From sequence record SRR20825006_693: a DNA stretch of 34,103 nucleotides; one strand, written 5' to 3'. Shown in pieces: positions 779-23,336 of this stretch (positions are counted from its first letter, which is position 1; each line of letters opens with the position of its first letter). Under the pieces are notes generated by a model. It had not been told where the DNA came from. It saw only the letters and a list, made by a program, of their open reading frames with translations, and made no database searches. Position numbers and translations under genes: made by a program.

Positions 779-874
779 TCGCAGCGCCACAGTCGGTTTA
801 TAAAGTGGGTTTTTAAAATGCTAAATTAGTGTTTAAGCATATTTTTTCGGAAATTAGAACTAAAATGAATGGAG

Positions 875-1117
875 ATGGCAACTGTTGAAACTTTAAGAAA
901 CGGACTGATTGAGAAAATACAAGCGATAAAAGATAAAGAGTTTTTAGTCGCTTTAGATCGTTTAATCGCATCAGGCAAAGCCGAATCAGATATACTTGAA
1001 TTATCTGAAGCGCAAAAGGAATTGCTTGATCTGGCAGAGCAAGATGTTGCAACAGGAGCTTTACTTTCTCAAGAGGAATTAGATCAAAGAAATTTAAAAT
1101 GGCTGGACGCAATGTAG
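875..1117 (+). CDS. Putative type II antitoxin (addiction-module-type small acidic protein)
   Basis: About 80 aa, acidic C-terminus (ELSEAQKELLDLAEQD...LSQEELD); overlaps the downstream RelE/ParE gene by 19 nt. Start may be ATG 869 or 875. Confidence 0.7.
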   Translation: MATVETLRNGLIEKIQAIKDKEFLVALDRLIASGKAESDILELSEAQKELLDLAEQDVATGALLSQEELDQRNLKWLDAM

Positions 1118-1416
1118 TATGGACGCGTACGGCAGATATACAATTTGTAGGAATACTTGAATATTGGGTTCACCGAAATAAATCTAATACGTATTCTAAG
1201 AAGTTAGTTAGTCTCGTTTCAAAAACGACAAAACAAATTGCTAAAAACCCCAATCTTTTTAAGGCAACTAATTATAAGGATATTCGGGTTGCTTCACTAA
1301 ATCAGTACAGCATTTTTTATAAAGCCCATTCTGACCAAATTATTATTTTGGCTTTTTGGGATAACCGTCAAGATGATAAAAAGCTATTACAGTATTTAAA
1401 AACTAGAAATATATAG
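1099..1416 (+). CDS. RelE/ParE family toxin
   Basis: 105 aa basic protein with N-terminal VVWTRTA, central NPNLFK and C-terminal YSIFY...IIILAFWDNRQD, a typical RelE/ParE pattern. Confidence 0.85.
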   Translation: MAGRNVVWTRTADIQFVGILEYWVHRNKSNTYSKKLVSLVSKTTKQIAKNPNLFKATNYKDIRVASLNQYSIFYKAHSDQIIILAFWDNRQDDKKLLQYLKTRNI

Positions 1417-1422
1417 AATAAT

Positions 1423-1450
1423 AAAGCCCCGCATCGCGGGGCTTTTTATT
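1423..1450. terminator. Bidirectional intrinsic terminator between the convergent toxin gene and arsM
   Basis: AAAGCCCCGC-ATC-GCGGGGCTTT stem (1423-1445) with A-rich and T-rich flanks. Confidence 0.85.
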
Positions 1451-1472
1451 TTTACCGATGGCTGCAAGCCAT

Positions 1473-2441
1473 TTAGCAGCATCCGCCACCATCATAGTGA
1501 AAAGTGCTTTCACTAATAAATATGTCGTCACGGCCTAAAGCAGCAAGCGCACCGGCCGTTTTATCGCACACAGCCAATGGTTGGTTTTTCAATAAAACGT
1601 GGCCTTTTTTATCATCAAAATAATCCTTAGCGCCGTAATAGATGGCAGCTTTTCCGGTGAAGATACACGGGCCATCCTCTGGCATAGGATCTTTAATCGC
1701 TGCCACCTCAATCGATTCGATGTAGATGAGTTCGTCTGTTGGGTAGTTTTTAGGATCGAGAATGCGATACGGCTTGCGCGCACGAATCTCGATAGTGCCA
1801 AAACCAGCGTCGGTCAAGGCTTTTACATATTCTTTTATTGGTAAACTTCCGCTTAGGCATAATGCACGTAGGCGCTCATCGTTACGCAAGGTTTCATTCA
1901 TTTCTTGCTCGCAAGTAGGATCGCTCATTACGAGTCTGCCGTGAGGTTTCAGTACACGGTACATTTCATCAATCGCTTTTTTCAATTCTTCGGCTTTAAA
2001 AATATTGAAGAGACAATTTTGAGCTGCTACATCGATGCTGTTGTCTTCCACAGGTAAGTGAAGCGCGTCTCCCTTTTTAAGATCTACAAACTCACTTTTG
2101 AACCAAGGGTTTAACTCCTCAGCTACCTCAAAGTTTTTGCGTGAAGCTTCGAGCATCTCATCAACCACGTCAACGCCTACTACGCCGCTTTTTTGGCGCG
2201 AGAAATAAGCGAACTGTAAAAGCTCCATTCCGCCGCCTACGCCCACATAAAGCACCCGCGGATCGTTTGTAAGATCACGCGCATTTACGGTGCTTCCGCA
2301 GCCGTAATTCATCTCTTGCATAATCTTAGGGATTTTCAATTCCGGCAATTCCCAAATGGGATTTGTGGTGCAGCAAAGTCCAACATCTGGAGTGAGTGCA
2401 GCGTCACGATATACATTTTTGGTGGTTTCTAAATAACTCAT
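1473..2441 (-). CDS. arsM: Arsenite S-adenosylmethionine methyltransferase (arsenosugar-cluster type)
   Basis: N-terminal LCCT, NYGCGS, SAM motif I VLYVGVGGG, GVD, QNCLFN, YRVLKPHGRLVMSD, ALCLSG; C-terminal PCIFTGK...VCDKT domain ending GGGCC; same operon as arsS. Confidence 0.88.
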   Translation of the reverse strand: MSYLETTKNVYRDAALTPDVGLCCTTNPIWELPELKIPKIMQEMNYGCGSTVNARDLTNDPRVLYVGVGGGMELLQFAYFSRQKSGVVGVDVVDEMLEASRKNFEVAEELNPWFKSEFVDLKKGDALHLPVEDNSIDVAAQNCLFNIFKAEELKKAIDEMYRVLKPHGRLVMSDPTCEQEMNETLRNDERLRALCLSGSLPIKEYVKALTDAGFGTIEIRARKPYRILDPKNYPTDELIYIESIEVAAIKDPMPEDGPCIFTGKAAIYYGAKDYFDDKKGHVLLKNQPLAVCDKTAGALAALGRDDIFISESTFHYDGGGCC

Positions 2442-2501
2442 AATACATTATGTTATTCTCTAAAGATAAACTAGAGAAGGTTATTTAAGTTCTTTTGTCT
2501 A

Positions 2502-3329
2502 TTAAAGTTGAATGCCAAAACCTTGCAAGCCGCTTTCATATGCCGGCAGAATTTCGGTGTTGTCCCAAATTCCGGTGATCAGGGTCCGGGCATATTCCTG
2601 CGGTAAAAAGTCGGTTTGCATATGTTGATTAGCCAATTTGTAATTATAGTCCATCGTGTGATGCGTAAATTTAAGTTGGCCATCCCGTTCTTCTAAGATC
2701 GCATACCACACGTGCGGACTTCCATCATTTGCCGGCATTCCGATAACCCCGGGATTGAGCCAGAGTTTTTCATTCTTACTATGATTAAAGGGTAATCCAC
2801 AATGACCAGCGATGATCACATCGGCACCCGTTGCATCAAAGTTTTTCTGTTTAAGGGACCAATCGGTAGACTTATATACAAATTCAGAGACGTTAAAAAA
2901 GTCGCCGTGAACCATAACGAACTTTTTATCCGCAAAGCGGAATTGTATATGATCAGGAAAAGTAGCGATAAAATCTAACGAACTTTTACTGAGTTTACTT
3001 TGCGCGTACGGAAACCACATTTGACTAAAGCCGTCACAGCGCGAACCTTTTCTAAAATCACAACCGCAATCTTCTGCGCCATCGCGCAACTGAATCTCTA
3101 CATTACCTAAAATACTTTGCGCTCCCCAAATTTTAAAGAGTTGCACGACTTCTTCGGGTTGTGCGCAATACCCCACAATGTCCCCGGTGCACAAGCAATT
3201 TTGTGGTGCGATGTGTTGTGCTTCGGCGATATGCTTCAGCGCTTCTAAAGCTTGAAGATTACTGTACACTCCACCAAACAAAAGCACCTTTCCGTCAAGT
3301 TTGCCAAGGTCTACCACAGTTTTATCCAT
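2502..3329 (-). CDS. Calcineurin-like metallophosphoesterase family protein with degenerate motifs and a CxC-x7-C insert
   Basis: GDIVGY, GNVE, VHG, GHCG, NPGVIGMP. Start moved to ATG 3329 (MDKTVVDLG, 275 aa), which overlaps the symporter stop by 19 nt. Confidence 0.8.
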   Translation of the reverse strand: MDKTVVDLGKLDGKVLLFGGVYSNLQALEALKHIAEAQHIAPQNCLCTGDIVGYCAQPEEVVQLFKIWGAQSILGNVEIQLRDGAEDCGCDFRKGSRCDGFSQMWFPYAQSKLSKSSLDFIATFPDHIQFRFADKKFVMVHGDFFNVSEFVYKSTDWSLKQKNFDATGADVIIAGHCGLPFNHSKNEKLWLNPGVIGMPANDGSPHVWYAILEERDGQLKFTHHTMDYNYKLANQHMQTDFLPQEYARTLITGIWDNTEILPAYESGLQGFGIQL

Positions 3330-4648
3330 GCCGGTATCATATATAAAATTAAACAACATCCCGCGGCCCAAATGTTGGCCCATAGTAGGTCTGCATAGCG
3401 ACCTTGAGTTAGAATCCAACATTCAGGAATCAGGTTAAAAACCAATAAAAGTCCGAAACCAATGCCACAAAAAACACTCAGGTAAAAACTGAGTTTAGGG
3501 GCAGGGAGTTTCCAAAAGAAAAATATAGGCGTAAGGCCAATAACCATCGTGCCTGAAATGGTTGTTGCCGATAAAATTTCAGCATCTAAAAAGATAGGAA
3601 TTGTACCCAGAACAACCAATACACACATCGCTAAACGACCAAAACTGATGCTTTCGCCGAGTCTTAAATCTACTGCTGCCAGTTTAGAAAATGATGAAAA
3701 CGTAGAGTCTAAAGTCGAAGCCGCTGAGGTGATCATTATAAAATTGATGATCAACAAGATCACGCTACCAAAGGCTTTTCCTACTTCTACAGCCGCCTGC
3801 CCCTGCATTCCCATCGCTTTGGCATAAACCCCAATAACGCTGAAAAGCACTATACAGATCGCTCCTAAAATCCCTGCCCAAAGAAAACTTCTAAGCGTGA
3901 CTTTTGGCGAACTTAAAAAGCCGCGGTCTGTCAAAACGGGATCGTGAAAGGGATAACTCAAACTTTGAATGAGCGCGGCAAATAATAAATTTAAACCAGT
4001 GTCAAAACCCCAAACTCCAGATTGCAAGGTTTCTGCTACTGTAAAATTAGTAGTCGAATAAATGCTCGCCAAGATCACAAATAGTAAAATTCCAAAAAGT
4101 CCCATTTGTAAAACGTCGGTAAAGATCGAACTGCTCAAGCCACCTTTAAGCGAATAGGCAAGCGTTAGCAGTGTAAATACAATAATAGAGGCGTAATAGG
4201 GAGTGCTGCCGATATCGCCAAAATAACTTCCGATCACCATCGTATTGCTCCATACCTCATTAAACAGACGTATTGCGATCAACACCGAAAACACACGCAT
4301 CGCATTTTTACCGAAGCGCGAGGTAAGAAACTGATGCAAACTGGTAAAACCACCTCGTGTACGCAGCGAATAAATAAGAATACCCGCCATTACAAACGAG
4401 AGATAATACGCGGCATAAGCGACACCACCCACAATACCAAATTCCAATCCCAGGTTGGCCGCATTGGTAATACTCTTGGCAAAAATCCAGGAAATGATCA
4501 AGCTACCGGTAAGCATAAAGGCATTGGGCGCCTTCCTGCGATGCGTTGCTTTAAAAAAATCATCGGTTGTTTTTGCCAGAGGCGAAAGGAAAAAGAGCGT
4601 TACACTAGACGCAATAATCAAGATCCACTGCCAGATTGCTATATCCAA
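3311..4648 (-). CDS. Sodium:solute symporter (SSS) family transporter
   Basis: 445 aa, many hydrophobic segments; SWIFAKSI, FLTSRFG, YSLKGGLSSSIFTDVLQ, SAASTLDS. Confidence 0.9.
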   Translation of the reverse strand: MDIAIWQWILIIASSVTLFFLSPLAKTTDDFFKATHRRKAPNAFMLTGSLIISWIFAKSITNAANLGLEFGIVGGVAYAAYYLSFVMAGILIYSLRTRGGFTSLHQFLTSRFGKNAMRVFSVLIAIRLFNEVWSNTMVIGSYFGDIGSTPYYASIIVFTLLTLAYSLKGGLSSSIFTDVLQMGLFGILLFVILASIYSTTNFTVAETLQSGVWGFDTGLNLLFAALIQSLSYPFHDPVLTDRGFLSSPKVTLRSFLWAGILGAICIVLFSVIGVYAKAMGMQGQAAVEVGKAFGSVILLIINFIMITSAASTLDSTFSSFSKLAAVDLRLGESISFGRLAMCVLVVLGTIPIFLDAEILSATTISGTMVIGLTPIFFFWKLPAPKLSFYLSVFCGIGFGLLLVFNLIPECWILTQGRYADLLWANIWAAGCCLILYMIPAWIKLW

Positions 4649-4658
4649 ATTGGTAATT

Positions 4659-6101
4659 TTAATTATCCCACCAAACGGGACTGTTTAAACTGTTGTCATT
4701 TGTGGCTGCTGCCGCGGCTTGATAATTATCTGCATTCAAAGCTTGCTCTTCTGCCGGATACGGCATACGCACAGGAATGATCCCATCATTCAAGCTCGCT
4801 GCAACGGCCCTAAATTCGGGGAAGCCGGTGCGGCGCCATTCGATCCAACCTTCATAGCCGTTGATGAGGTTAGCGATCCATTTTTGCGTGATGATCTGTT
4901 GTACAGGTGTGGTTCCTGCAGCGTTATATGCAGCCGGTCCGTTCAAGTACTCTGCCGGAAGATCGGTCAACCAATAATCAAAAGCCAACTGAACGCCTTG
5001 ATTGTATAAAGATTCTGCATCAGCACTTATAAAACCTTTTTCTGCAGCTTCCGCAAGGATAAAGTGTGTTTCCCAAGCCGTCATAAAATTAGCATCTAAT
5101 TGCGCAGTGTTCTCTCGGAAAAGCGTTCCGGCCAACGAATAATTAGCAGGTTCGATCGAAGTTTGTGAGGCATCAATTCCGTTGATGAGTCCGTTAAATT
5201 CACCGGAAGTCGAATTGGCAAAAGGACGGAAAAATACCGAAATACGATCATCATCAAGATCGGTTAAAATATCTTCCATAGTTTCAGAAAGCACAAAGTT
5301 GTTGAAATCTCCTGCCCGCAATTGCGCAAAGCGAAAACTATTAGGAGCACTTGAGGTGAAATCGAAAACGGCATTATCTGCATTAGTAGTGATAAAATTT
5401 CCTTCGGCATAAATAGAAGCGATAGCGGACGCTACATCCTCCTGACTTGAAATACGCATTAAGGCTTTCAGCTTTAAAGAGTTTGCAAACTGTATCCATT
5501 TGCTGAGATCCCCGTCAAAAAACAGATCACCTTCTAAAGCCACAGCGCCGGAGTAGGCATTGATCGCGGCAATCCCCTGATCCAGGTTGTCCAGAATTCC
5601 GCCATCTGCTAGATAAATAGCTTCTTGATCATCATAAGGGGCGGTGACGGTTCCGTCAATTCCATTAAATGCTTCAAAATAGGGAACATCGCCAAACAAA
5701 TCGGTAAGACCTTGCGCCATATAGGCTTTGAGAATCAATGCCGGTCCTTCATAAACTTTAAAGGTTTCGACTTCCTGAGCCTGTTTAAGTAAAAGTTCGT
5801 TGTCTCTGAGATTGGTGTAAAAAATAGGCCAGGGATTGCCACCCAATTGCGGCGATTTCAATGCGTGACGATCAAAGAGGTTAAAGTCTAAAGCCGTGCG
5901 ATGCTGTGAAAGGAGATCGCCTGCTGCAAAACCTTCATAGCTCATTTGCTCGCCAAAATCATAAATAACCTGGCGTAAAAGCAATCCCGGTTGCACGCTT
6001 ACCGGCGCATTGGGATTGGTGTTTTTTTCTTCAAAATCTGTAGTACAAGCCGTAAAGAAGCTCAGACTCAAGATTAGAATGGTATATATCGTGTTTTTCA
6101 T
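4659..6101 (-). CDS. SusD/RagB family lipoprotein
   Basis: Lipobox FFTA-C then TTDFEEKNTNPN; LTDLFGDVPY, ANSLKLK, IITQKWIA, EGWIEWRRTGFP, PVRMPYP, VWWD; directly downstream of SusC. Confidence 0.95.
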   Translation of the reverse strand: MKNTIYTILILSLSFFTACTTDFEEKNTNPNAPVSVQPGLLLRQVIYDFGEQMSYEGFAAGDLLSQHRTALDFNLFDRHALKSPQLGGNPWPIFYTNLRDNELLLKQAQEVETFKVYEGPALILKAYMAQGLTDLFGDVPYFEAFNGIDGTVTAPYDDQEAIYLADGGILDNLDQGIAAINAYSGAVALEGDLFFDGDLSKWIQFANSLKLKALMRISSQEDVASAIASIYAEGNFITTNADNAVFDFTSSAPNSFRFAQLRAGDFNNFVLSETMEDILTDLDDDRISVFFRPFANSTSGEFNGLINGIDASQTSIEPANYSLAGTLFRENTAQLDANFMTAWETHFILAEAAEKGFISADAESLYNQGVQLAFDYWLTDLPAEYLNGPAAYNAAGTTPVQQIITQKWIANLINGYEGWIEWRRTGFPEFRAVAASLNDGIIPVRMPYPAEEQALNADNYQAAAAATNDNSLNSPVWWDN

Positions 6102-6131
6102 CTTCTAATTAGTTTTGATAGGCTTCAAGCC

Positions 6132-9100
6132 TTAAAAATTAAAGCCTGCTTTTAAACCAATACTGCGCGTGGTGGCATAGCTCATATCTTCAACACCGCT
6201 TACAAAGCCGGTGCCTTGCACTGCGAGTTGCTCAGGATCAAAATGCGGTATTTCTGAAAAGGCAAAGAGGTTGCGTCCCACAAGCGACAAGTCGATGTCC
6301 ATCCCGTTACTTAAGCCTAAAAAGCCATCTTTTAGATTAAAGGTATACCCCACTGAAAACTGACGCAGTTTTAAATAGGAAGCGTCATAAATATTGTTTT
6401 CTTCGTGGTTACGATCGTAAAATTGACGATAATAGGTCTCTGCAGAAACCGCGGTGGTATTGGGTACATACTGCGGATTTTCTGCTGTGCCTGTATTGAC
6501 CACACCTTGCGGAACAATACCTGCTTCCGGGCGATTTGCTGTTTCGGCAAGTTGGCCACCCACAGTTCCCAAAGCGCGCGTACGTGAAACGAGTTCGCCA
6601 CCTTGTCGCCAGTCAAACAAGAAGCTCAAACTCCAATTTTTATAGCTGAAGCTGTTGTTCCAGCCTAGCATAAAGTCAGGGGTGTAGTTTCCTATTTTTT
6701 TGAGGTTATTGTCTGCGATATAGCTTCCGGAAGGGGTTAGTATAAATTGTCCGTCTTCGGTTTTTTGATAACCAGTTCCGTAGATATCGCCAATTTTTCC
6801 GCCTTCTTCTACCTGAAACCAAACGGTCTGGTTGGCACTGTCGTAAATTCGGCTGTAAGCCAAGGTCAGCCTTCCGTCAGCTTGTGGTAAACTTTCTACT
6901 CTCGACGTATTACTACTAAAATTGAATGTAGTATTCCATTTAAAATTAGCGGTCAGAATCGGTGTGAGATCTGCGATAAGTTCGACTCCCTGGGTGCGCA
7001 CTTCACCGCCATTCACCACCTGCTGATTGTATCCTGATGAGATCGCGATAGGTAGTGAAATGATCTGATCTTTGGTCAACGCGTTGTAATACGTCGCATC
7101 TAATCGAATGCGATCTTTAAGAAATCTGATGTCAGCGCCTACTTCGTAAGACGTGGTTTGTTCAGGTCTCAGATTAGCATTCGGTATAAAATTTTGATTG
7201 CTGAAGGTGGGCTGCCCGTTATAAGCCGTCTGCGAAATAAACGCACCGCTGGTTTGATAAGGCTGCGTATCGTTACCCACTTGGGCTACACTCGCGCGAA
7301 GTTGCGCATAGGAAAAAGCTTTGGGTAACTCAGCAACTTCAGAAAGAATAAAACTCGCAGAAGCCGAAGGGTAAAAGAACGAAGTCCCATCTACCGAAAA
7401 TGGCGTAGCAAGCGCGCTTGACCAGTCGTTACGGCCGGTAAGGTCTAAAAATAAAAACTCTCGGTAGCCAAGTTTTGCAATTCCGTAGAGGGAATTGATG
7501 CGCTTATTTGATTCAAATTGAAATACATCAATTGGCGAAGCAGCGTTATTTAGATTGAAAACTCCCGGTTGTGCAAGATTCACCGTTTGCGACTGTTTGG
7601 TGCTGGCTTTTTGATCCAGACGGTTTCCGCCTAGCGAAACATCAAGAGAAAAGTCGCCAAAAATGTTGTTATAATTCAGTAAGAAATCAGTGTTGATCTC
7701 GCGATAAAACACATCGTGCTCGGCATAGCCTCCATTTTGAAAACGGTTAGAGCTGAAAGCACGACGCAGCTGGCGCGTTTCCGAAGAATAATCCATTCCG
7801 GAACGCAGCGAAAGGCTGAGGTTTTCTGTGATTTGCTGTTTGATAGAAATATTTCCAAAAACCCGATCCCGGTTGAAAGAATTCCGGTTTTCATACATCG
7901 TAAAAAACGGATTGTCAAAATACGTATAGTTGAAGGAGTAGTGCTGCACGCCTTCTAATCCCGGTTGCCAATATTGACGTAAGCTGTTAATGTCTAGCGA
8001 GCGCGGTCCCCAAGCCACAAGCGCATAATTGACGTTCTCACTTCCGTAGCCGTTAGATGGGCGGTTGTCGCTCCCAGAATTCACATAACTGATAGAAGCA
8101 TTAAACGTGGTTTCGTCAGTCGGTTTAAAATTCAGTTTGGTAGCTACCGTTTGACGGTCCAGATTTACTCCGGGAATGATCGACTCACTGCGTAAATCGG
8201 TAAACGAAATGCGATAGTTTCCTTTGTCAAAACCGCTGCCTATCGCCACGTTATTGATCGTGGTCACGCCGGTCTCGTAAAAATCTTTCAGGTTATCAGG
8301 ATGTGAATTGAAGGCTGTCGGCGTGATGGCGACCCCGTTGTATAAGGAAGTGTCTCCACCCCGAACGACCGTTCCGTCAGGTAAAGTTACAGGTGAATCA
8401 AATTGTGCAATCAAGGTGCCCTGATCTAAACGCGGTCCCCAGGAATAGGAGATGAGGTCGTTGACCCCGCCGCCTAAACCGTCAACAAATTCAAACTGAC
8501 CGGAATTTCCTTGCCCGTATTGATTTTGAAATTCAGGAAGTTTAAAGGGCGTATCTACAAAAACCGAAGTATTGATGCTGATGCCTAGACCTTTGCTTTG
8601 GCTTCCGTTTTTAGTTTCAATAATGATCACACCGTTTGATGCGCGGGTGCCGTAAAGCGCTGCAGCACTTGGGCCTTTGAGTACACTCACCGAAGCAATA
8701 TCGTCTGGATTGACTTCCATGGCGCCATTACCAAAATCTATCTCTTGAAAACCGGCTGCGGCTTCGTTACTTTCATTAAAAACTGTGTTGTTGTTGATAG
8801 GCGTTCCGTCAACTATAAACAACGGATTGTTGTTTGAAAAGGAAGCCTCACCGCGAATGGTGATCTTCGAAGAAGAACCCACGCCGGTAGCGCCTTGTGA
8901 AACCGTAACACCGGCTAATTTCCCAGCAAGATTGTCGAGGAAGTTCGGCGCTTTTACCGCAGAAACTTCTTCTGCTTCGATGGTTTGCACTACATAACCC
9001 AATTCTTTAGTCTCGCGCTCGAGACCGAGCGCCGTTATGACCACTTCATCGAGGTCTGTAGTAGATTCTTGTAAAGTGATATTGATGGTAGTTCGCCCGT

Positions 9101-9347
9101 TGATTGATGAGGTTTGGGTGATGAAGCCAATTGCTGAAAAGCGTAGTTCGTTAGCTGCAGCAGGAACTTCCAGCGAAAACATTCCGTTTTCATCGGTTAT
9201 CGTAGCAGCATCGGTATTTACGGCAATGACATTTACAAACGGTACGGTCGTCCCGTCGCTTGAGGTGGTTACCGTACCCGAAATGGTAGTTTGGCTATTG
9301 GCAACTGCACACAGCAAGAGCATTAGCCCAAAATAAAGGTGTTTCAT
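6132..9347 (-). CDS. SusC/RagA family TonB-dependent outer-membrane transporter
   Basis: 1071 aa; signal peptide, LDEVVITALG, PLFIVDG, NPDDIASVSVLKGPSAAALYGTRASNGVIIIETK plug motif, RNDWSS, LRPEQTTSYEVG, C-terminal Phe. Confidence 0.97.
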   Translation of the reverse strand: MKHLYFGLMLLLCAVANSQTTISGTVTTSSDGTTVPFVNVIAVNTDAATITDENGMFSLEVPAAANELRFSAIGFITQTSSINGRTTINITLQESTTDLDEVVITALGLERETKELGYVVQTIEAEEVSAVKAPNFLDNLAGKLAGVTVSQGATGVGSSSKITIRGEASFSNNNPLFIVDGTPINNNTVFNESNEAAAGFQEIDFGNGAMEVNPDDIASVSVLKGPSAAALYGTRASNGVIIIETKNGSQSKGLGISINTSVFVDTPFKLPEFQNQYGQGNSGQFEFVDGLGGGVNDLISYSWGPRLDQGTLIAQFDSPVTLPDGTVVRGGDTSLYNGVAITPTAFNSHPDNLKDFYETGVTTINNVAIGSGFDKGNYRISFTDLRSESIIPGVNLDRQTVATKLNFKPTDETTFNASISYVNSGSDNRPSNGYGSENVNYALVAWGPRSLDINSLRQYWQPGLEGVQHYSFNYTYFDNPFFTMYENRNSFNRDRVFGNISIKQQITENLSLSLRSGMDYSSETRQLRRAFSSNRFQNGGYAEHDVFYREINTDFLLNYNNIFGDFSLDVSLGGNRLDQKASTKQSQTVNLAQPGVFNLNNAASPIDVFQFESNKRINSLYGIAKLGYREFLFLDLTGRNDWSSALATPFSVDGTSFFYPSASASFILSEVAELPKAFSYAQLRASVAQVGNDTQPYQTSGAFISQTAYNGQPTFSNQNFIPNANLRPEQTTSYEVGADIRFLKDRIRLDATYYNALTKDQIISLPIAISSGYNQQVVNGGEVRTQGVELIADLTPILTANFKWNTTFNFSSNTSRVESLPQADGRLTLAYSRIYDSANQTVWFQVEEGGKIGDIYGTGYQKTEDGQFILTPSGSYIADNNLKKIGNYTPDFMLGWNNSFSYKNWSLSFLFDWRQGGELVSRTRALGTVGGQLAETANRPEAGIVPQGVVNTGTAENPQYVPNTTAVSAETYYRQFYDRNHEENNIYDASYLKLRQFSVGYTFNLKDGFLGLSNGMDIDLSLVGRNLFAFSEIPHFDPEQLAVQGTGFVSGVEDMSYATTRSIGLKAGFNF

Positions 9348-9417
9348 TTTTTTGTTTCTGATTAGTAAAGGAAAGCGGCTTGATTGTACAGTACACCGCG
9401 AGACAAATGGTTTTGTC

Positions 9418-10098
9418 TTAAATACTTAAACTAATCGGAGAACCTTTGTTGAAGTAGTTTTGATACTGAAAGGCATCAAAGAAGAACTTTTGGTTGGTGA
9501 TTGGTTGCGTCCCTCTAAAGTGTATGCGTAATAGCAGTTTTTTGATCAAATATGGAAGTTGCCCGCGATCTAAAAGTGCAGCAACATCAAAAACCGAATC
9601 TAAGTCGTGCAGCACCTCAAGTATTGTAGCCTGAATTTTCTGCTCACGTACTTTCCTCAGAATGATTTGCGTGAGTTTTGAAGTCTGCCAAGGGAGTTCC
9701 AAAAGCGCTTGTGCATTAAAATGCGCTTTGTTCAGTCCCATTAAATAAAACCCACCATCAACGGAAGGTCCGATGACCATTGGGCAATTTTGCAATTCGC
9801 TTGCGGCCGTAAGTAAATGCTGCTTAGTTAAATGCGGACTGTCATTCCCAATACTGATCACATTGTCATAGCCCAGGTCATAAATTTCTGTAAAGGCTTG
9901 TGTATAGCGTTCAGCAAACGTGGCCCCTTTTTGATTTTTTTCAGAATAAATGTAAAAGGGGAGTCCGCTTTGTTTTACCGTTTTTAAAGTCTGCCGGTTG
10001 AGCGCTTCAAAGAGTTGCACGCCGTTGTGCATCGACTTGTGTCGTGCATCTTCTTCCGCAGAGCGGGCAAAAATTAATATGGCGGTAGTAGTCTTCAA
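9418..10098 (-). CDS. DUF2064 / CofC-like GT-A-fold protein (second, divergent paralog)
   Basis: TTG start; AILIFAR, QKGATFAER, IGNDSP, GPSVDGGFYLMG, LPWQT, DLD; C-terminal tail ending NKGSPISLSI. Confidence 0.8.
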   Translation of the reverse strand: MKTTTAILIFARSAEEDARHKSMHNGVQLFEALNRQTLKTVKQSGLPFYIYSEKNQKGATFAERYTQAFTEIYDLGYDNVISIGNDSPHLTKQHLLTAASELQNCPMVIGPSVDGGFYLMGLNKAHFNAQALLELPWQTSKLTQIILRKVREQKIQATILEVLHDLDSVFDVAALLDRGQLPYLIKKLLLRIHFRGTQPITNQKFFFDAFQYQNYFNKGSPISLSI

Positions 10099-10139
10099 TA
10101 AGGCGGTAAACGCAACGCGTGCTTCTGGTTATTTTGAGA

Positions 10140-11207
10140 TTAGGCTACAGTTCCCTGGCAGCTGCTTCCTGCGCCGGCAGTACAGCCGTAGCAATGCTGA
10201 GAAATGATAATGTTTCGATCGTTAAGCACATCTTCATTATATTCTGAAATATGCTTCACTTTTGAATTCACTTTAAGATCCAGCATCTGATTGAAATCAC
10301 AATCGTACAGCCAGCCGTCCCAACTTATCGAGATCGTATTGGTACACATTACATTCGCCACCGCAGCCGGATTGTAAGCTTCAACAAGTTGGTACATATA
10401 ATCCTCGTAGTTTTCTGAAGCGATCAAGTAATCCAGAAAACGTGCGATAGGAAGGTTGGTAATTGCAAACAGATTATGAAACTGAATACCGAAATCTTCC
10501 ATCAGAGCCTTTTTGAAATCCTTTTCCATTCCTGCTTGATCAGAAGGGAGGTAAGCGCCGTTAGGATTATACACAAGGTCTAAGCGTAAGTCGCTATCTG
10601 GCATTCCGTAACCTACGGCATTTAATTCCTGTAAAGCTTTAATTGACTTGTTAAATACACCTTCACCACGTTGCTTATCGGTTTTACCACGTGTCCAGTG
10701 CGGCATCGAGCTCACCACGTGTACATTGTGTTTCTTGAAAAATTCCGGTAGATCGTAGTATTTCTTATTGGCGCGAATGATCGTTAGGTTACTGCGTACA
10801 ATAAAATCTTTAATCCCTGCTTTACTCGCTTCTTCTACAAAACGTCTGAAATTAGGATTCATTTCAGGAGCACCACCGGTAAGATCCAGTGTATGTGCGC
10901 CAGTGTTTTTGATCACTTCCAGACACTGCTCCATGGTTTCCCAAGTCATTATTTCTTTACGATCGGGACCGGCATCTACGTGACAATGCTCACACACCTG
11001 ATTACACATATATCCCACATTGATCTGAAGGATTTCCAGTTTTTTAGGTCGTAACGGAAATTGATTGGTCTCTTTGATCTTTTTGGCAAACGTAGGAAGT
11101 TCGCCATCGGCAAAAATTCCACCGGATAAAACCTCAAGCTGTTTATTGGCTTGAGCGAGATCGTCGTGACGTTTATGTAGGGATTTTTTTGTTTGAGTTG
11201 CAGGCAT
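10140..11207 (-). CDS. arsS: Arsenosugar biosynthesis radical SAM protein ArsS (Cys form)
   Basis: CNQVCEHC (CxxxCxxC), DLTGGAPEMNP, VRSNLT, QRGEGVF; Cys-rich C-terminus DCDFNQML...HCYGCTAGAGSSCQG. Confidence 0.92.
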   Translation of the reverse strand: MPATQTKKSLHKRHDDLAQANKQLEVLSGGIFADGELPTFAKKIKETNQFPLRPKKLEILQINVGYMCNQVCEHCHVDAGPDRKEIMTWETMEQCLEVIKNTGAHTLDLTGGAPEMNPNFRRFVEEASKAGIKDFIVRSNLTIIRANKKYYDLPEFFKKHNVHVVSSMPHWTRGKTDKQRGEGVFNKSIKALQELNAVGYGMPDSDLRLDLVYNPNGAYLPSDQAGMEKDFKKALMEDFGIQFHNLFAITNLPIARFLDYLIASENYEDYMYQLVEAYNPAAVANVMCTNTISISWDGWLYDCDFNQMLDLKVNSKVKHISEYNEDVLNDRNIIISQHCYGCTAGAGSSCQGTVA

Positions 11208-11277
11208 AAAAGCGTTTGTTTTTCTTTTTCAGTAGTGACTAAGATAGGACTAAGTTGCTAGAATATAGCCTTTAGTG

Positions 11278-11616
11278 CTACATTTCTAGCTTATTCACTT
11301 TATTCATCATCATCGTACCGTGTACGAGGGTAGCACCGCTCTTGATCGCAGCACCTACGTGAATGGCTTCCATCATTTGTTCTTTGGTCACGCCGCGTTG
11401 CAAGGTGTCTTTGGTGTACGCGTCGATGCAATACGGGCATTGTTCAGTATGCGCAACAGCAAGGGCGATAAGCGCCTTCTCTCGTGCAGTAAGCGCACCT
11501 TCTTCGAAAACTTTTCCGTAGTAATCAAAGAATTTTGTACCCAATTCCTCGCTCCATTCGGTGATCTTACCAAATTTTCTCAGGTCTGCCGGATCGTAAT
11601 AATTGTTGTTAGCCAT
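11278..11616 (-). CDS. AhpD/carboxymuconolactone decarboxylase-like CxxC protein (arsenosugar-associated peroxidase-like)
   Basis: EGALTAREKALIALAVAHTEQCPYCID; directly upstream of arsS. Confidence 0.88.
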   Translation of the reverse strand: MANNNYYDPADLRKFGKITEWSEELGTKFFDYYGKVFEEGALTAREKALIALAVAHTEQCPYCIDAYTKDTLQRGVTKEQMMEAIHVGAAIKSGATLVHGTMMMNKVNKLEM

Positions 11617-11647
11617 GATGATTTGTTGTTTTGAGTTATAAAAAGCA

Positions 11648-11665
11648 TAACTACACGAGTAGTTA
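11648..11665. promoter_or_regulatory. Inverted repeat TAACTAC-ACGA-GTAGTTA (operator or RNA hairpin)
   Basis: Perfect 7-bp arms in the PNP / AhpD-like intergenic region. Confidence 0.45.
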
Positions 11666-11706
11666 CGGAGATAATTGTGTTGTGGTTTTTTTAATGTGGA
11701 AAAACC

Positions 11707-12519
11707 CTAAAGTTTTTCAATAAGCTGCGTAAAAAGTTTAACCATATCAGGTTCTGCTTTTCCGGCGGCAGCCATAATATCTTGAATGTCTACAGGTGCT
11801 AGATTTTCTGGATCGCACTCATCGGTAATTACCGAGACAGCAGCAACCGGCAAATCGAGGTGGTTGGCGACAATCACTTCTGGAACGGTACTCATCCCAA
11901 CCGTGTCAGAGCCAATGATTTTAAGAAATCTATATTCGGCGCGGGTTTCTAGCTGTGGACCAACTACTGAAGCATAAACACCTTCGTGTAACGTGATTCC
12001 TTCGGTCTTTGCGATATCTTTAAGAATGTTGCGCATAGGTATGTCGTATGGTTCGCTCATATCAGTAAAACGTGAACCTAATTGTTCAACCCCTTTAAAC
12101 GCAAGGGGAGAGCCACCTTGCAAGTTGATGTGATCTTCAATAAGCATAATCTCGCCTTTTTTAAAGTTGAGGTTGATCGCGCCGGCTGCATTACTGATGA
12201 GTAGTTTTTTAATACCAAGTTCGTTCATAACACGCACCGGATAGCTTACATCGCGTAACGTGTAGCCTTCATAAATATGAAAACGACCTTGCATCACGAT
12301 CACTTTTTTTCCGCCTAAAGTTCCGTAGATCAGTTTTCCGGTATGGAATTCAACCGTGGCGGTTGGGAAGTTAGGAATGTGGTTGTAGCTCACCGAACTG
12401 ATGATCTCAACTTTATCTACAAATTGACCAAGACCGGTACCTAAAATAATACCGATTTCCGGAGCTTCAAAACCGCGCTCTTTTAAGAACTGCGCAGATT
12501 CTTCAATAAATTTTTTCAT
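11707..12519 (-). CDS. Trimeric-class purine nucleoside phosphorylase, predicted adenine-nucleoside specificity
   Basis: GIILGTGLG, MQGRFHIYEGY, SNAAG, GPQLETRAE, VGMSTVPE; SVITDEC where 6-oxopurine PNPs have SxITN. Confidence 0.93.
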   Translation of the reverse strand: MKKFIEESAQFLKERGFEAPEIGIILGTGLGQFVDKVEIISSVSYNHIPNFPTATVEFHTGKLIYGTLGGKKVIVMQGRFHIYEGYTLRDVSYPVRVMNELGIKKLLISNAAGAINLNFKKGEIMLIEDHINLQGGSPLAFKGVEQLGSRFTDMSEPYDIPMRNILKDIAKTEGITLHEGVYASVVGPQLETRAEYRFLKIIGSDTVGMSTVPEVIVANHLDLPVAAVSVITDECDPENLAPVDIQDIMAAAGKAEPDMVKLFTQLIEKL

Positions 12520-12525
12520 GGATTT

Positions 12526-13206
12526 TTATTTCAAATGTTCTGGTAAAAAAGGCTTGAAGGCCTCAATACCTTTTATGTCTTCGTAATAGTCTACATCATT
12601 ACGGGTTTCGAGCAATTTAACAGATTCTGAGCTTAAATCGGCAAGCGTGTCTTTAAGAACGGTTTCGGTGCCCCAAGTTTTATTGCTGAAAAGTTCTGGC
12701 TTTAAGAAGGTCATTCCGAGCAAATAATACCCGCCATCTTCAGCCGGACCAACAACAAAATCGTGCTCATCAAGCGATGCAAATGCTTCTTCTAGATCTT
12801 TTTGAGAAAGGTCATACATATCGCTACCAATGATGATCGCTTTTTTATAGCCGCTGGCAAAAGCTCCTGAAAACGCCTTTTGCATTCGAGCTCCCAGATC
12901 ATTACCGTGCTGTAGTTTTTTAGTAAACCTGTTTTCATCCCAATAATCTGAAGCACGTATTTTTTCAGAATAAAAAACCTGTTTATCTACGCTCAAATTT
13001 TGGGTAATGCTAACCGTGTGTCGAAGCAAAAACTTGTAGATATCAAGCGCAGCAACATCACCCACACCGCCTGCAAGTCTGGTTTTTACTTTACCCAATT
13101 CGGGATTGCGGGTAAAGATTAAAAGGGCTTTATCTGAGGTAGGGAAATGAAATTCTGTCTCGAAATCTTTTTCAGAATCGGTGTCTTTTTTACTTAATAG
13201 ACCCAT
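12526..13206 (-). CDS. DUF2064 / CofC-like transferase (arsenosugar-associated 'glycosyltransferase', TIGR04282-type by recollection)
   Basis: LLIFTRNPELGKVKTRLA, QHGNDLGARM, IIGSD, GPAEDGGYYLLG, WGT, DVD. Confidence 0.88.
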   Translation of the reverse strand: MGLLSKKDTDSEKDFETEFHFPTSDKALLIFTRNPELGKVKTRLAGGVGDVAALDIYKFLLRHTVSITQNLSVDKQVFYSEKIRASDYWDENRFTKKLQHGNDLGARMQKAFSGAFASGYKKAIIIGSDMYDLSQKDLEEAFASLDEHDFVVGPAEDGGYYLLGMTFLKPELFSNKTWGTETVLKDTLADLSSESVKLLETRNDVDYYEDIKGIEAFKPFLPEHLK

Positions 13207-13235
13207 TAGATGTTGTTAATTGATAAAAGTCAAAT

Positions 13236-13721
13236 TTAATGAACCGCAATTCCCGTACTTAAATAATCTTCCCAATTTTTTGAAAAGGTGTGCACTTTTT
13301 GAGTGCTTTTGCCTTTAGTATCTACAATTTTGAAGCCTGCATCTTTCCAAGCAAAAATTCCGCCGTAGAGATTATAAGCGGTTTTGCCGGTTTTGCGTTC
13401 AAGCTTTTCGCCAAAATCTTCGCTACGAATGCCCACGGTACAATACACTACAATTGGCTTTTTCTTATTTGATATGGAATCTAAAAATGCATCTTGAGGT
13501 CTTTCTCCAACCCAGATCGCTGACGGAAGATGGCTTACGGCAAACTCTTCTCTTTTACGGGTGTCTAGAATGGTATAGGCGTCAGTATTCATTTTCAGCT
13601 CTTGCACAGAAATATAAGGAACGCTTCGGGTGTTGTAGGTTTCCAGAAGTTTATCAATAGATTTTTTCTGGCAGAAGCCAAAAAGAGGAAGTAGAAGAGC
13701 GAGAAGCAGGTGAAATTTCAT
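13236..13721 (-). CDS. Rhodanese-like domain protein with N-terminal signal peptide
   Basis: Hydrophobic N-terminus MKFHLLLALLLPLFGFCQ; LDTR..EEFAVSHLPSA, active-site loop YCTVGIRS, NLYGGIFAW. Confidence 0.88.
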   Translation of the reverse strand: MKFHLLLALLLPLFGFCQKKSIDKLLETYNTRSVPYISVQELKMNTDAYTILDTRKREEFAVSHLPSAIWVGERPQDAFLDSISNKKKPIVVYCTVGIRSEDFGEKLERKTGKTAYNLYGGIFAWKDAGFKIVDTKGKSTQKVHTFSKNWEDYLSTGIAVH

Positions 13722-13903
13722 TCAAGAGTATTAATAAGGCAGTTTCTTAGTTCTGGTAAAACTTACGAAGAAACGCTTTTTTTGGTTTGATTTTAAAGGA
13801 ATCGATAAGCACGTGAATTACAGCACGCTTTAAAAGAGGGTGGTAATTCCGTGACGTTTCCCTTTAGTATTTCATATATTTAGCTATAAAAAACAACGTT
13901 CCT

Positions 13904-18091: not shown

Positions 18092-18122
18092 TTTTCTGCT
18101 TAAGCATTCTACCTCTTAAAAA

Positions 18123-18145
18123 TTAAACGTTATTTTTACGTTTAA
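18123..18145. promoter_or_regulatory. Inverted repeat TTAAACGT-N7-ACGTTTAA upstream of the HAD phosphatase gene
   Basis: Perfect 8-bp arms in the 66-nt intergenic region. Confidence 0.4.
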
Positions 18146-18157
18146 ATAAATAGCCCT

Positions 18158-19983: not shown

Positions 19984-20002
19984 TCAACCTACGTTTAAAA
20001 AT

Positions 20003-20035
20003 AAAAAAGCCCAAATCTTGAAGATCTGGGCTTTT
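20003..20035. terminator. Bidirectional intrinsic terminator between galE and the LacI gene
   Basis: AAAAGCCCA-A-ATCT-TGA-AGAT-C-TGGGCTTTT hairpin with one mismatch and A/T-rich flanks. Confidence 0.8.
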
Positions 20036-20059
20036 GTGTTTTTTAAAAGAATGTATGTT

Positions 20060-21070: not shown

Positions 21071-21071
21071 T

Positions 21072-22109: not shown

Positions 22110-22126
22110 AATCAGGCTTGTATTGT

Positions 22127-23296: not shown

Positions 23297-23336
23297 AATA
23301 CCGTTGAGGATTTAGATTAGTTGTGTAAATGAATGT

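What the first reader, a model, noticed from the sequence alone, without database searches (positions are those of the whole stretch)
1473..13721. Arsenosugar enzymes in one cluster with a SusC/SusD/SSS import module: a candidate organoarsenical synthesis-and-uptake locus
Seen: 11 co-oriented genes with gaps of 90 nt or less: rhodanese, CofC-like transferase, PNP, AhpD-like CxxC protein, ArsS, second CofC-like protein, SusC, SusD, Na+ symporter, metallophosphoesterase and ArsM. No ArsR, ArsC, Acr3/ArsB or glycoside hydrolase is present. Established: in Synechocystis PCC 6803, ArsM methylates As(III) and ArsS adenosylates DMA(III) to 5'-deoxy-5'-dimethylarsinoyl-adenosine (DDMAA); later steps are poorly defined. 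SusC/D and SSS proteins are importers. Inference: this is not a detoxification operon. The cell appears to import an arsenical (algal arsenosugar, DMA or an arseno-nucleoside) and build or remodel arsenosugars. Proposed route: ArsM -> AhpD-like reduction -> ArsS (DDMAA) -> PNP (dimethylarsinoyl-ribose-1-P + adenine) -> CofC-like nucleotidyl activation -> aglycone transfer. I recall similar neighbourhoods in other Flavobacteriaceae, so the novelty is the uncharacterised function rather than uniqueness.
Basis: partly seen in the sequence, partly recalled or inferred. Interest (0 to 1): 0.88.

Follow-up and report, generated by a model that had tools for sequence, protein, structure and literature searches.

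The report
Arsenosugar genes with built-in uptake module
A marine flavobacterium's arsenic-sugar gene cluster has a conserved set of import proteins and an odd cysteine-rich protein built into it, which suggests that these bacteria deliberately take up an arsenic-related compound whose identity is still unknown.

Summary
Eleven co-oriented minus-strand genes (1473-13721) end at one strong terminator. Six pass or hit NCBI's curated arsenosugar models: ArsM, ArsS, TIGR04169, TIGR04282, the rhodanese NF045521, and a PNP. This core is annotation-level knowledge and near-universal in the family (ArsS in 158 of 201 genomes).

The less ordinary part is a five-gene insert: DUF2064 paralog, SusC, SusD, a distant SSS-like permease and a metallophosphoesterase-fold protein.
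- It occurs in 22 of 201 sampled genera and in four other families.
- It is always in ArsS-positive genomes (27 of 27) and lies beside arsS in 24 of 27, in at least four gene orders.
- The "phosphoesterase" has lost one metal site and its catalytic His, and has gained invariant cysteines.
- Elsewhere this protein is fused to ArsS, to the AhpD-like protein, or to an ArsS-like radical SAM enzyme.
- A congener carries a different, non-orthologous SusC/D plus ABC importer at the same spot.

Best reading: a dedicated uptake route feeds an exogenous, probably organoarsenical, substrate into the ArsS pathway. The substrate is not identified. This scan found the same kind of locus before on other DNA (e1-3101851).

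The parts
13236..13721 (-). Exported rhodanese, first gene of the cluster
   Evidence: NF045521 rhoda_near_glyco scores 186.7 against a cut-off of 145. It has an N-terminal hydrophobic signal-like segment. The active-site motif YC[ST]xGIRS is invariant in 17 of 17 aligned orthologues.
12526..13206 (-). DUF2064 / TIGR04282 'arsenosugar biosynthesis glycosyltransferase' (core copy)
   Evidence: TIGR04282 scores 215.6 against 134, and PF09837 scores 110 bits. It lies next to PNP in the default family cluster.
11707..12519 (-). Purine nucleoside phosphorylase (PNP-I type)
   Evidence: NF006054 scores 335 against 218. It is part of the default core in 16 of the 18 module-less loci. A congener has a nucleoside hydrolase plus an MtnK-like kinase instead.
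11278..11616 (-). AhpD-like CxxC protein (TIGR04169)
   Evidence: TIGR04169 scores 190.3 against 120. C60 and C63 are invariant in 17 sequences. Elsewhere it is found fused to the module's phosphoesterase-like protein.
10140..11207 (-). ArsS, radical SAM enzyme
   Evidence: TIGR04167 scores 437.7 against 300, with PF04055 and PF12345. The radical SAM cysteines C68, C72 and C75 and the C-terminal cysteines are invariant.
9418..10098 (-). DUF2064 paralog, first gene of the uptake module
   Evidence: PF09837 scores 70.6 bits. TIGR04282 scores only 95 against 134 and matches profile positions 51-188. It is 26% identical to the core copy over 125 residues. It sits directly upstream of SusC in 20 of 21 fetched family loci.
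6132..9347 (-). SusC-type TonB-dependent outer-membrane transporter
   Evidence: TIGR04056 scores 595.4 against 368, with CarbopepD_reg_2, Plug and barrel domains. Orthologues are 69-77% identical in other genera of the family (99% in the nearest genome) and 59-65% in other families.
4659..6101 (-). SusD-like lipoprotein
   Evidence: PF12771 scores 307.8 bits. The signal peptide ends in Cys. Orthologues at 65% identity or more are found in 22 of 201 genomes, and the next-best matches are at most 40% identical.
3311..4648 (-). Distant SSS-like inner-membrane permease
   Evidence: TIGR00813 scores 37 bits against 184. PDB 9rws, a choline transporter, matches at E 5e-6. The Atlas feature score is 0.99 to 'sodium:solute symporter' clusters. 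Homologues at 38-42% identity lie beside the radical SAM/phosphoesterase-like fusion in 6 of 80 alphaproteobacterial loci.
2502..3329 (-). Cysteine-rich metallophosphoesterase-fold protein, a partner of ArsS-type enzymes
   Evidence: PF12850 scores 41.9 bits. The AF2 model has pLDDT 87, and Foldseek's top hits are SapH 3qfm and 3rqz. DxH is replaced by G-V-Y, GNH by GNV and GHxH by GHCG. C47, C88 and C90 are invariant and C98 nearly so. Fusions to ArsS, AhpD-like and other radical SAM enzymes exist.
1473..2441 (-). ArsM, arsenosugar-type arsenite methyltransferase, last gene
   Evidence: NF038099 scores 571.2 against 400.
1423..1445 (.). Bidirectional terminator-like hairpin closing the cluster
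   Evidence: It has 10 pairs, 7 of them G-C, with T-runs on both strands.

Best explanation
The locus is an ArsM/ArsS arsenosugar-type organoarsenical pathway with a dedicated import route added. The core is near-universal in this flavobacterial family.

Proposed route of the import module:
1. SusC/SusD carry a scarce external compound across the outer membrane.
2. The SSS-like permease carries it across the inner membrane.
3. The cysteine-rich metallophosphoesterase-fold protein handles it in the cytoplasm, working with the AhpD-like CxxC protein and directly with ArsS. This protein is not a phosphoesterase.
4. PNP, the DUF2064 proteins and TIGR04283 (encoded elsewhere) then process the adenosylated product into a riboside.

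The imported compound is most likely an exogenous organoarsenical. One candidate is a pentavalent methylarsenical such as dimethylarsinate, which must be reduced before ArsS can adenosylate it. The other is a dimethylarsinoyl riboside or nucleoside of algal origin.

What is shown here: gene families, conservation, linkage and fusions. What is established elsewhere: ArsM methylation, and ArsS adenosylation of DMAs(III) to DDMAA. What is inferred: the direction of transport, the role of the phosphoesterase-like protein and the identity of the substrate.
For: 1. Curated models above cut-off identify ArsM, ArsS, TIGR04169, TIGR04282 and NF045521.

2. The SusC-SusD-SSS-phosphoesterase-like block is contiguous in all 26 loci fetched for it: 21 in the family and 5 from the phylum search.

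3. All 27 genomes carrying the block have ArsS over cut-off. The baselines are 158 of 201 in the family and 149 of 401 in the phylum.

4. The block lies beside arsS in 24 of 27 genomes, in at least four different gene orders. Linkage has therefore been kept through rearrangements.

5. Rosetta-stone fusions tie the phosphoesterase-like protein to the pathway. Of 72 longer homologues at E <= 1e-20:
- 2 are fused to ArsS (PF04055 + PF12345);
- 5 are fused to the AhpD/CMD domain, one of them named 'arsenosugar biosynthesis-associated peroxidase-like protein';
- 65 are fused to another radical SAM enzyme.
A further 413-residue phosphoesterase-like/AhpD fusion sits directly beside ArsS in G544.

6. 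The active site is remodelled. The M1 ligands and the GNH histidine are lost, while D50, N76, H141 and H176 are kept. C47, C88 and C90 are invariant and C98 nearly so, across stand-alone and fused forms.

7. In Alphaproteobacteria the fusion sits with an SSS homologue, PNP, GT2 and DUF2064, and usually without ArsM. ArsM appears in 5 of 80 loci. This is what one expects if import replaces methylation as the substrate supply.

8. A second species of the same genus carries a non-orthologous SusC/D plus ABC importer, with a nucleoside hydrolase and an MtnK-like kinase, at the same place next to era, beside ArsM-ArsS.

9. The SSS and phosphoesterase-like genes overlap in the window, where the overlap is 19 nt.

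10. Contigs from marine RNA libraries of three studies cover all eleven genes and bridge most junctions. This is weak support: DNA carry-over is not excluded, and a contig is not a transcript.
Against: - No result identifies the substrate. No arsenic-binding or transport assay exists for any module protein.
- ArsS works without the module in most genomes. 136 of the 158 ArsS-positive genomes lack the SusD orthologue, and the 18 such loci fetched carry no SSS or phosphoesterase-like gene.
- In 3 of 27 genomes the module lies far from arsS: G116 at 180 kb, G333 at 3.2 Mb and G353 on another contig.
- The related SusC/D-ABC-rSAM2 module occurs in three genomes that are 99-100% complete and have neither ArsS nor ArsM. 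Cousins of this system do not depend on arsenosugar genes.
- SusD proteins usually bind glycans or larger ligands, which argues against a 138-Da dimethylarsinate.
- The four conserved cysteines could equally hold zinc or an Fe-S cluster.
- The cysteine loop has only moderate model confidence (pLDDT 62-64), and I could not measure distances in the model.
- Genomes are related, so the co-occurrence counts overstate independence.
Confidence: 0.45

Rival explanations
1. The module imports a non-arsenical molecule that the pathway needs or salvages. Candidates are the aglycone or a sugar acceptor, or a 5'-modified nucleoside or riboside such as 5'-deoxyadenosine, MTA or a SAM-derived product. The phosphoesterase-like protein would be an auxiliary metal or Fe-S domain serving the radical SAM enzyme rather than an arsenic handler.
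For: - The type-2 cousin module (SusC/D, ABC importer, nucleoside hydrolase, MtnK-like kinase, rSAM2) occurs in genomes without ArsS or ArsM.
- The hydrolase plus kinase pair mirrors MTA and 5-deoxyribose salvage.
- SusD proteins typically bind glycosides.
- Four conserved cysteines fit a Zn or Fe-S site.
- Sixty-five of 72 fusions are to a radical SAM enzyme that is not ArsS.
Against: - The type-1 module was found only in ArsS-positive genomes (27 of 27) and mostly beside arsS (24 of 27).
- Fusions to ArsS itself and to the arsenosugar-associated AhpD-like protein exist.
- Alphaproteobacterial cassettes with the fusion carry PNP, GT2 and DUF2064, the arsenosugar-type downstream set.
- The ArsS reaction releases methionine, not 5'-deoxyadenosine (passages of PMC13598754), so no by-product salvage is needed.
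Confidence: 0.22
2. The locus is a catabolic or remodelling system for algal arsenosugars. SusC/D and SSS import dimethylarsinoyl ribosides. The cell then strips or exchanges the aglycone and detoxifies or re-uses the arsenic part. ArsM and ArsS only happen to share regulation with it.
For: - The genera named among close homologues are marine, for example Polaribacter, Lacinutrix, Flavivirga and Winogradskyella. From recall, many of them are algae-associated.
- An arsenosugar is a glycoside of a size that suits SusC/D.
- A 2025 review states that uptake mechanisms of arsenosugars are largely unknown (passage of PMC12608789), so no known system competes.
Against: - No glycoside hydrolase, isomerase or aldolase lies in the cluster.
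- The phosphoesterase-like protein lacks catalytic residues, so it would not cleave phosphodiester arsenosugars.
- Its fusions point to the ArsS step, which arsenosugars cannot enter.
Confidence: 0.18
3. The 'arsenosugar' names are annotation transfer. In these bacteria the ArsS-type pathway and its import module act on another element or compound class, for example selenium or antimony species.
For: - Only the cyanobacterial ArsM and ArsS have been tested (recalled, plus passages).
- The NCBIfam hit list itself contains related (seleno)protein families.
- ArsS is very widespread, in 149 of 401 genomes of the phylum, which is more than an arsenic-specific speciality might suggest.
Against: ArsM matches the arsenosugar-specific ArsM model at 571 bits, and ArsS matches an equivalog model at 438 bits. 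The ArsM cysteine-containing motifs are present in the sequence (the motif assignment is from recall).
Confidence: 0.08
4. Chance insertion of an unrelated SusC/D locus into the arsenic cluster.
For: SusC/D pairs are very numerous in these genomes. 111 of 201 genomes have a SusD match at E <= 1e-30, often several. One module-less locus (L055) has an unrelated SusC/D pair nearby.
Against: The same orthologous block recurs in 22 genera and four further families, in several gene orders, and is nearly always beside arsS. One of its proteins is fused to ArsS and AhpD-like proteins elsewhere.
Confidence: 0.03

Closest known systems
Cyanobacterial arsenosugar pathway (ArsM plus radical SAM ArsS, Synechocystis sp. 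PCC 6803) and NCBI's curated arsenosugar gene set (NF038099, TIGR04167, TIGR04169, TIGR04282, TIGR04283, NF045521)
   Same: ArsM, ArsS, TIGR04169, TIGR04282 and the rhodanese all score above their curated cut-offs. TIGR04283 is present elsewhere in the nearest genome. ArsS chemistry, DMAs(III) to DDMAA, is documented (passages of PMC13598754).
   Different: This locus has a five-gene uptake module in the middle. My four text searches found no paper that links arsenosugar genes to such a module. The steps after DDMAA are unproven. Arsenosugar production by flavobacteria was not found in the searches and was not tested.
Bacteroidota polysaccharide utilisation loci (SusC/SusD systems)
   Same: There is an adjacent SusC (TIGR04056) and SusD-like lipoprotein pair followed by an inner-membrane transporter.
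   Different: The cluster has no glycoside hydrolase, lyase or esterase, and no hybrid two-component or ECF/anti-sigma regulator. The partners are radical SAM and arsenic-methylation genes.
SapH / 3rqz subgroup of metallophosphoesterases
   Same: The fold is shared: Foldseek gives E 1.4e-14 and TM 0.72-0.78 to 3qfm, 3rqz and 1nnw. The profile match to 3rqz has E 2e-14.
   Different: 3rqz has canonical DVH, GD, GNHD, H and GHTH motifs. The module protein has GVY, GD, GNVE, H and GHCG, plus the invariant D-C-G-C...C loop and a C-T-G-D motif.
MTA and 5'-deoxyadenosine salvage (phosphorylase route versus nucleosidase plus MtnK kinase route)
   Same: The window uses a PNP-family phosphorylase. The congener locus uses an IU-nucleoside hydrolase plus an MtnK-like kinase (TIGR01767, 101 bits) at the equivalent place. 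These are the two standard ways to reach a 5-substituted ribose-1-phosphate (pathway knowledge recalled).
   Different: The kinase scores below the MtnK cut-off (101 against 275). No isomerase or aldolase is present. The 5'-substituent here would be an arsinoyl group, which is inferred and not shown.
Phosphatase-derived arsenate reductases (LMW-PTPase-type ArsC; Cdc25/rhodanese-type Acr2), recalled as an analogy
   Same: A phosphate-binding fold has lost hydrolytic residues and gained cysteines. It is paired with a thiol-disulfide protein, here the AhpD-like CxxC protein, to which it is fused in some genomes.
   Different: The fold is different (calcineurin-like). No reductase activity has been shown. 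The cysteines might instead bind Zn or Fe-S.

Membership tests
NCBIfam arsenosugar biosynthesis gene set | ArsS: TIGR04167 equivalog score over 300 bits with a radical SAM CxxxCxxC motif | tested here: met
   The score is 437.7 bits. C68, C72 and C75 are invariant in 17 sequences.
NCBIfam arsenosugar biosynthesis gene set | Arsenosugar-type ArsM: NF038099 score over 400 bits | tested here: met
   The score is 571.2 bits over positions 1-321 of 321.
NCBIfam arsenosugar biosynthesis gene set | Accessory genes TIGR04169, TIGR04282 and NF045521 above cut-off | tested here: met
   The scores are 190.3 against 120, 215.6 against 134 and 186.7 against 145.
NCBIfam arsenosugar biosynthesis gene set | TIGR04283 glycosyltransferase 2 in the cluster | tested here: not met
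   It is not among the window ORFs. It is present over cut-off elsewhere in the nearest genome (G001, contig C7, 233.5 bits). In G098 and G116 it lies within about 9 kb and about 6 kb of arsS.
NCBIfam arsenosugar biosynthesis gene set | The cell makes DDMAA or arsenosugars | not testable with these tools
   This needs arsenic speciation by HPLC-ICP-MS/ESI-MS.
Polysaccharide utilisation locus (PUL) | Adjacent SusC/SusD pair | tested here: met
   TIGR04056 scores 595 bits and PF12771 scores 307.8 bits. The gap between the genes is 30 nt.
Polysaccharide utilisation locus (PUL) | Linked carbohydrate-active enzymes and a dedicated sensor or regulator | tested here: not met
   No hydrolase, lyase or regulator family was found among the 11 genes. 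The LacI gene at 20060-21070 belongs to the neighbouring galactose genes.
Metallophosphoesterase (calcineurin-like) enzymes | Fold | tested here: met
   PF12850 scores 41.9 against 27. Foldseek matches 3qfm, 3rqz and 1nnw at E about 1e-14.
Metallophosphoesterase (calcineurin-like) enzymes | Five catalytic motifs: DxH, GD, GNH[DE], H, GHxH | tested here: not met
   DxH is G-V-Y, GNH is GNV and GHxH is GHCG. GD, H141 and H176 are kept. This holds in all 17 orthologues and in the fused forms.
Sodium:solute symporter family (SSS) | Family model score over cut-off | tested here: inconclusive
   TIGR00813 scores 37.4 against 184. Pfam SSF gives no hit at E 10. PDB 9rws matches at E 5e-6 over 150 residues. 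The Atlas feature score is 0.99. It is a distant relative, and neither ion coupling nor substrate is known.
ars detoxification operon | ArsR, ArsC, and Acr3 or ArsB in the cluster | tested here: not met
   None is present among the window ORFs. Acr3 (435.7 bits) is on another contig of the nearest genome.

The most novel reading that the evidence does not exclude
The cysteine-rich metallophosphoesterase-fold protein is a new kind of organoarsenical-handling protein. It would be a thiol-based reductase and carrier that takes an imported pentavalent methylarsenical, reduces it with the AhpD-like CxxC protein, and hands the trivalent product directly to ArsS. In the alphaproteobacterial fusions the recipient would be an ArsS-like enzyme. 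Together with SusC/SusD and the SSS-like permease, it would be the first described bacterial system for deliberate high-affinity uptake of organoarsenic. It would let marine flavobacteria turn algal or dissolved methylarsenic into ribosides, a possible microbial link in the marine arsenic cycle.
Probability: 0.2. Interest if true: 0.85.

Novelty: new variant of a known kind. Interest (0 to 1): 0.62.

Why it matters
Arsenosugars are the main arsenic compounds of marine algae. Only the first two biosynthetic enzymes are known. A 2025 review states that uptake mechanisms for arsenosugars and other small organoarsenicals are largely unknown (passage of PMC12608789).

This locus gives concrete, testable candidates in culturable marine flavobacteria:
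- an outer-membrane pair and an inner-membrane permease;
- a small protein family, 171 clusters at E <= 1e-30 among 1.84 billion representatives, that evolution has repeatedly fused to ArsS-type enzymes.

If the imported compound is an arsenical, it would show that bacteria acquire organoarsenic on purpose rather than only expel arsenic. It could also supply the so far unidentified enzyme that reduces pentavalent methylarsenicals (an open question, from recall).

Tried and rejected
- Complex prediction of ArsS with the phosphoesterase-like protein gave 'no answer' (score 0.00, and my alignments were not used). It counts neither for nor against binding.
- The Rfam gathering scan of the whole window found nothing, so no riboswitch was seen.
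- The sigma-70 promoter scan found 23 sites against 27.7 expected. It is uninformative, and this phylum uses other promoters (recalled).
- The search for longer, fused forms of the DUF2064 paralog found a single 399-residue protein on a 1338-bp contig that combines DUF2064 with the SusC N-terminal domain. It is probably a read-through, and I drew no conclusion from it.
- The paper search 'arsenosugar' + 'SusC' matched 'susceptib...' and was useless.
- Searches for 'arsenosugar' + 'TonB-dependent' and for 'DUF2064' returned 0 papers. Searches on arsenosugar/ArsS/Flavobacteri and on 'arsenosugar biosynthesis' + 'gene cluster' listed nothing on such a module (listings only).
- The window's own assembly is not held, so all genome-wide statements rest on the nearest genome, G001.
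- I could not obtain model coordinates, so the distance between the cysteines and the residual metal site was not measured.
- The idea that the phosphoesterase-like protein cleaves phosphodiester arsenosugars was dropped because its catalytic residues are missing.
- The idea of a DHAP-shunt-like route from arsenoribose to arsenobetaine precursors was dropped for lack of isomerase and aldolase genes in the loci.
- Parts of the RNA-library lay-out without cover carry no meaning.

Full report
**Observation**

The window carries eleven minus-strand ORFs from 13721 down to 1473. They are separated by 6-90 nt, with one overlap. A strong bidirectional hairpin at 1423-1445 closes the cluster.

Curated NCBIfam models above their cut-offs identify five of the genes:
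- an exported rhodanese (NF045521);
- a TIGR04282 DUF2064 protein;
- the AhpD-like TIGR04169 protein;
- ArsS (TIGR04167, 437.7 bits);
- the arsenosugar-type ArsM (NF038099, 571.2 bits).

A PNP-I phosphorylase is also present. Between ArsS and ArsM lie five more genes:
- a DUF2064 paralog below the TIGR04282 cut-off;
- SusC;
- a SusD-like_2 lipoprotein;
- a permease that is only a distant SSS relative;
- a Metallophos_2 protein.

None of the 30 window ORFs scanned hits ArsR, ArsC, Acr3/ArsB or a glycoside hydrolase family. Acr3 lies on another contig of the nearest genome. Close named homologues point to Leeuwenhoekiella (84% identity). The nearest held genome, G001, has the same cluster at 96-100% protein identity.

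**The core is ordinary**

ArsS scores over cut-off in 158 of 201 genomes of the family, roughly one per genus, and in 149 of 401 genomes of the phylum. I fetched 18 ArsS loci that lack the SusD orthologue. Their usual cluster is AhpD-like, ArsS, (rhodanese), DUF2064, PNP, ArsM, although a few loci lack some of these genes. None has a permease or phosphoesterase-like hit, and 2 of the 18 have the DUF2064 paralog. TIGR04283, the second 'arsenosugar' transferase, is present over cut-off in 5 of 5 genomes tested but outside the cluster in G001. Up to this point the locus is what NCBI's annotation already calls an arsenosugar gene set. ArsS adenosylating DMAs(III) to DDMAA is documented (passages of PMC13598754).

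**The insert is a conserved module tied to ArsS**

Searching the same 201 genomes with the window's SusD gave a bimodal result. Twenty-two genomes have an orthologue at 65-99% identity, and all other matches are at most 40% identical. I fetched 20-kb regions for 21 of the 22.
- In all 21, SusC-SusD-permease-phosphoesterase-like are contiguous.
- In 20 of 21, the DUF2064 paralog sits directly upstream of SusC.
- In 20 of 21, the block is next to arsS.
- The 22nd genome, G186, has a SusD fragment 4 kb from arsS on the same contig.
- G116 has the block 180 kb from arsS, among housekeeping genes.

At least four gene orders occur:
- as in the window;
- AhpD-ArsS-[module]-rhodanese-DUF2064-PNP-ArsM, the commonest;
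- [module]-AhpD-ArsS;
- the G015 order, with ArsS between the DUF2064 paralog and SusC.

A phylum-wide profile search for the phosphoesterase-like protein found high-scoring orthologues in 7 of 401 genomes, four of them in other families. Their loci keep SusC-SusD-permease-phosphoesterase-like at 48-65% identity. arsS is adjacent in two of these four.

All 27 module-carrying genomes have ArsS. The genomes are related, so this is not a formal statistic. Even so, linkage that survives rearrangement and family boundaries is hard to ascribe to chance.

**The 'phosphoesterase' is not one, and it is a partner of ArsS-type enzymes**

An alignment of 17 orthologues and a comparison with the closest solved relative, 3rqz, which has canonical DVH / GD / GNHD / H / GHTH motifs, show the following:
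- DxH has become G-V-Y, GNH has become GNV, and GHxH has become GHCG.
- D50, N76, H141 and H176, the second metal site, are kept.
- Cysteines have appeared next to the motifs: C-T-G-D and a D-C-G-C-x7-C loop.

The AF2 model is confident overall (pLDDT 87) except in that loop (62-64). It resembles SapH, 3rqz and two Pyrococcus proteins.

A search among longer proteins found 72 homologues at E <= 1e-20:
- 2 are fused to ArsS itself (PF04055 + PF12345, 50-52% identity to the window protein);
- 5 are fused to the AhpD/CMD domain;
- 65 are fused to another radical SAM enzyme of about 600 residues.

G544 has a 413-residue fusion with the AhpD-like protein directly beside ArsS. Across stand-alone and fused forms, C47, C88, C90, D50, N76, H141 and H176 are invariant and C98 is nearly so. 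The family is small: 171 clusters at E <= 1e-30 among 1.84 billion representatives.

**Related systems**

Relatives of the alphaproteobacterial fusion (80 loci) carry several related genes within 10 kb:
- the phosphoesterase-like domain in 34 of 80;
- a DUF2064 gene in 25 of 80;
- a homologue of the window's permease (38-42% identity) in 6 of 80;
- a PNP-like gene in 5 of 80;
- ArsM in 5 of 80.

One Afipia locus reads: permease / fusion - PNP - DedA - GT2 - DUF2064. That is an arsenosugar-like cassette with an importer and no ArsM.

In a genome of another class (L076), a 57%-identical permease lies with a phosphoesterase-like gene, an ArsS-like radical SAM gene, DUF2064 and a FadL/TodX-type outer-membrane channel.

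A second species of the window's genus (G198) has, at the same place next to era: ArsM-ArsS-AhpD-rhodanese, followed by a second radical SAM enzyme, an MtnK-like kinase, an IU-nucleoside hydrolase, an ABC importer and a non-orthologous SusD/SusC pair. That second module type also occurs in three genomes with neither ArsS nor ArsM.

**Reading**

Three different envelope-crossing solutions accompany ArsS-like enzymes: SusC/D plus permease, SusC/D plus ABC importer, and FadL-like channel plus permease. Uptake is therefore part of the biology of this enzyme family.

In the window's type, the permease gene overlaps the gene of a protein that evolution has fused to ArsS and to its thiol partner. The simplest explanation is that an imported compound is prepared for, or handed to, ArsS. 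A pentavalent methylarsenical that needs reduction fits the chemistry and the cassettes that lack ArsM. A riboside or nucleoside fits SusD and the hydrolase/kinase variant better. I cannot decide between them, and a non-arsenical substrate is not excluded.

Contigs from marine RNA libraries of three studies, 90-97% alike, cover all genes and bridge most junctions, for example 9327-11624 and 9571-11929. This is only weak evidence of expression.

**Novelty**

- No paper in the library combines arsenosugar with TonB-dependent transport (0 hits).
- DUF2064 appears in none.
- The listings show nothing on such a module.
- A 2025 review calls organoarsenical uptake mechanisms largely unknown.
- This scan noted the same kind of locus before on other DNA (e1-3101851), and the ABC-type cousin as well (e1-4228740).

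I rate the finding a new variant of a known kind. It is of moderate to high interest, with an unidentified substrate.

Noticed in passing
window 14915-18091 (+): A single 1058-residue ORF joins a complete glycerol kinase (GlpK, residues 2-490) to a glycerol-3-phosphate oxidase/dehydrogenase (residues about 505-1033). It is transcribed divergently from the arsenic cluster, between galM and a HAD-IIA phosphatase plus GalE. The same fusion is present in the nearest genome. Glycerol is the commonest arsenosugar aglycone (recalled), but no link was tested.
   Followed up: no
window 13904-25290: Leloir-pathway genes (galM, galE, LacI-type regulator, galT, galK) and a well-scoring SSS transporter (NF007790, 775 bits) flank the cluster. 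They look like an ordinary galactose utilisation set.
   Followed up: no
window 869-1416 (+): A small ORF is followed by a ParE-type toxin domain ORF (PF05016), probably a toxin-antitoxin pair. It lies between era and the terminator of the arsenic cluster. It is absent from this position in the congener G198 locus, where era abuts ArsM.
   Followed up: partly
L049 (G198) 9949-19783; L159, L162, L163, L164: A second conserved module reads: DUF2064 paralog, SusC, SusD, ABC importer (PRK11622-type binding protein), IU-nucleoside hydrolase, MtnK-like kinase, and a radical SAM enzyme with no close family. It is found beside ArsS in one genome and in three genomes lacking ArsS and ArsM.
   Followed up: partly
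L076 (G460) 534-10789: In another class of the phylum, the locus reads: MarR, unknown, phosphoesterase-like, ArsS-like radical SAM, a 57%-identical permease, unknown, DUF2064, a FadL/TodX-type outer-membrane channel, unknown, MerR. The same inner-membrane permease is paired here with a different outer-membrane route.
   Followed up: partly
L086 (Afipia sp.) 8292-18176: An alphaproteobacterial cassette reads: permease homologue / phosphoesterase-like-radical SAM fusion, PNP, DedA/VTT, GT2, DUF2064. It is followed by two pyridine nucleotide-disulphide oxidoreductases and a DUF3047 protein.
   Followed up: partly
phylum sample: ArsS is over cut-off in 52 of 87 genomes of one family with small genomes (f24, 2-3 Mb) and in 149 of 401 genomes overall. 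The 'arsenosugar' radical SAM enzyme is far more widespread in this phylum than its single characterised cyanobacterial example suggests.
   Followed up: no
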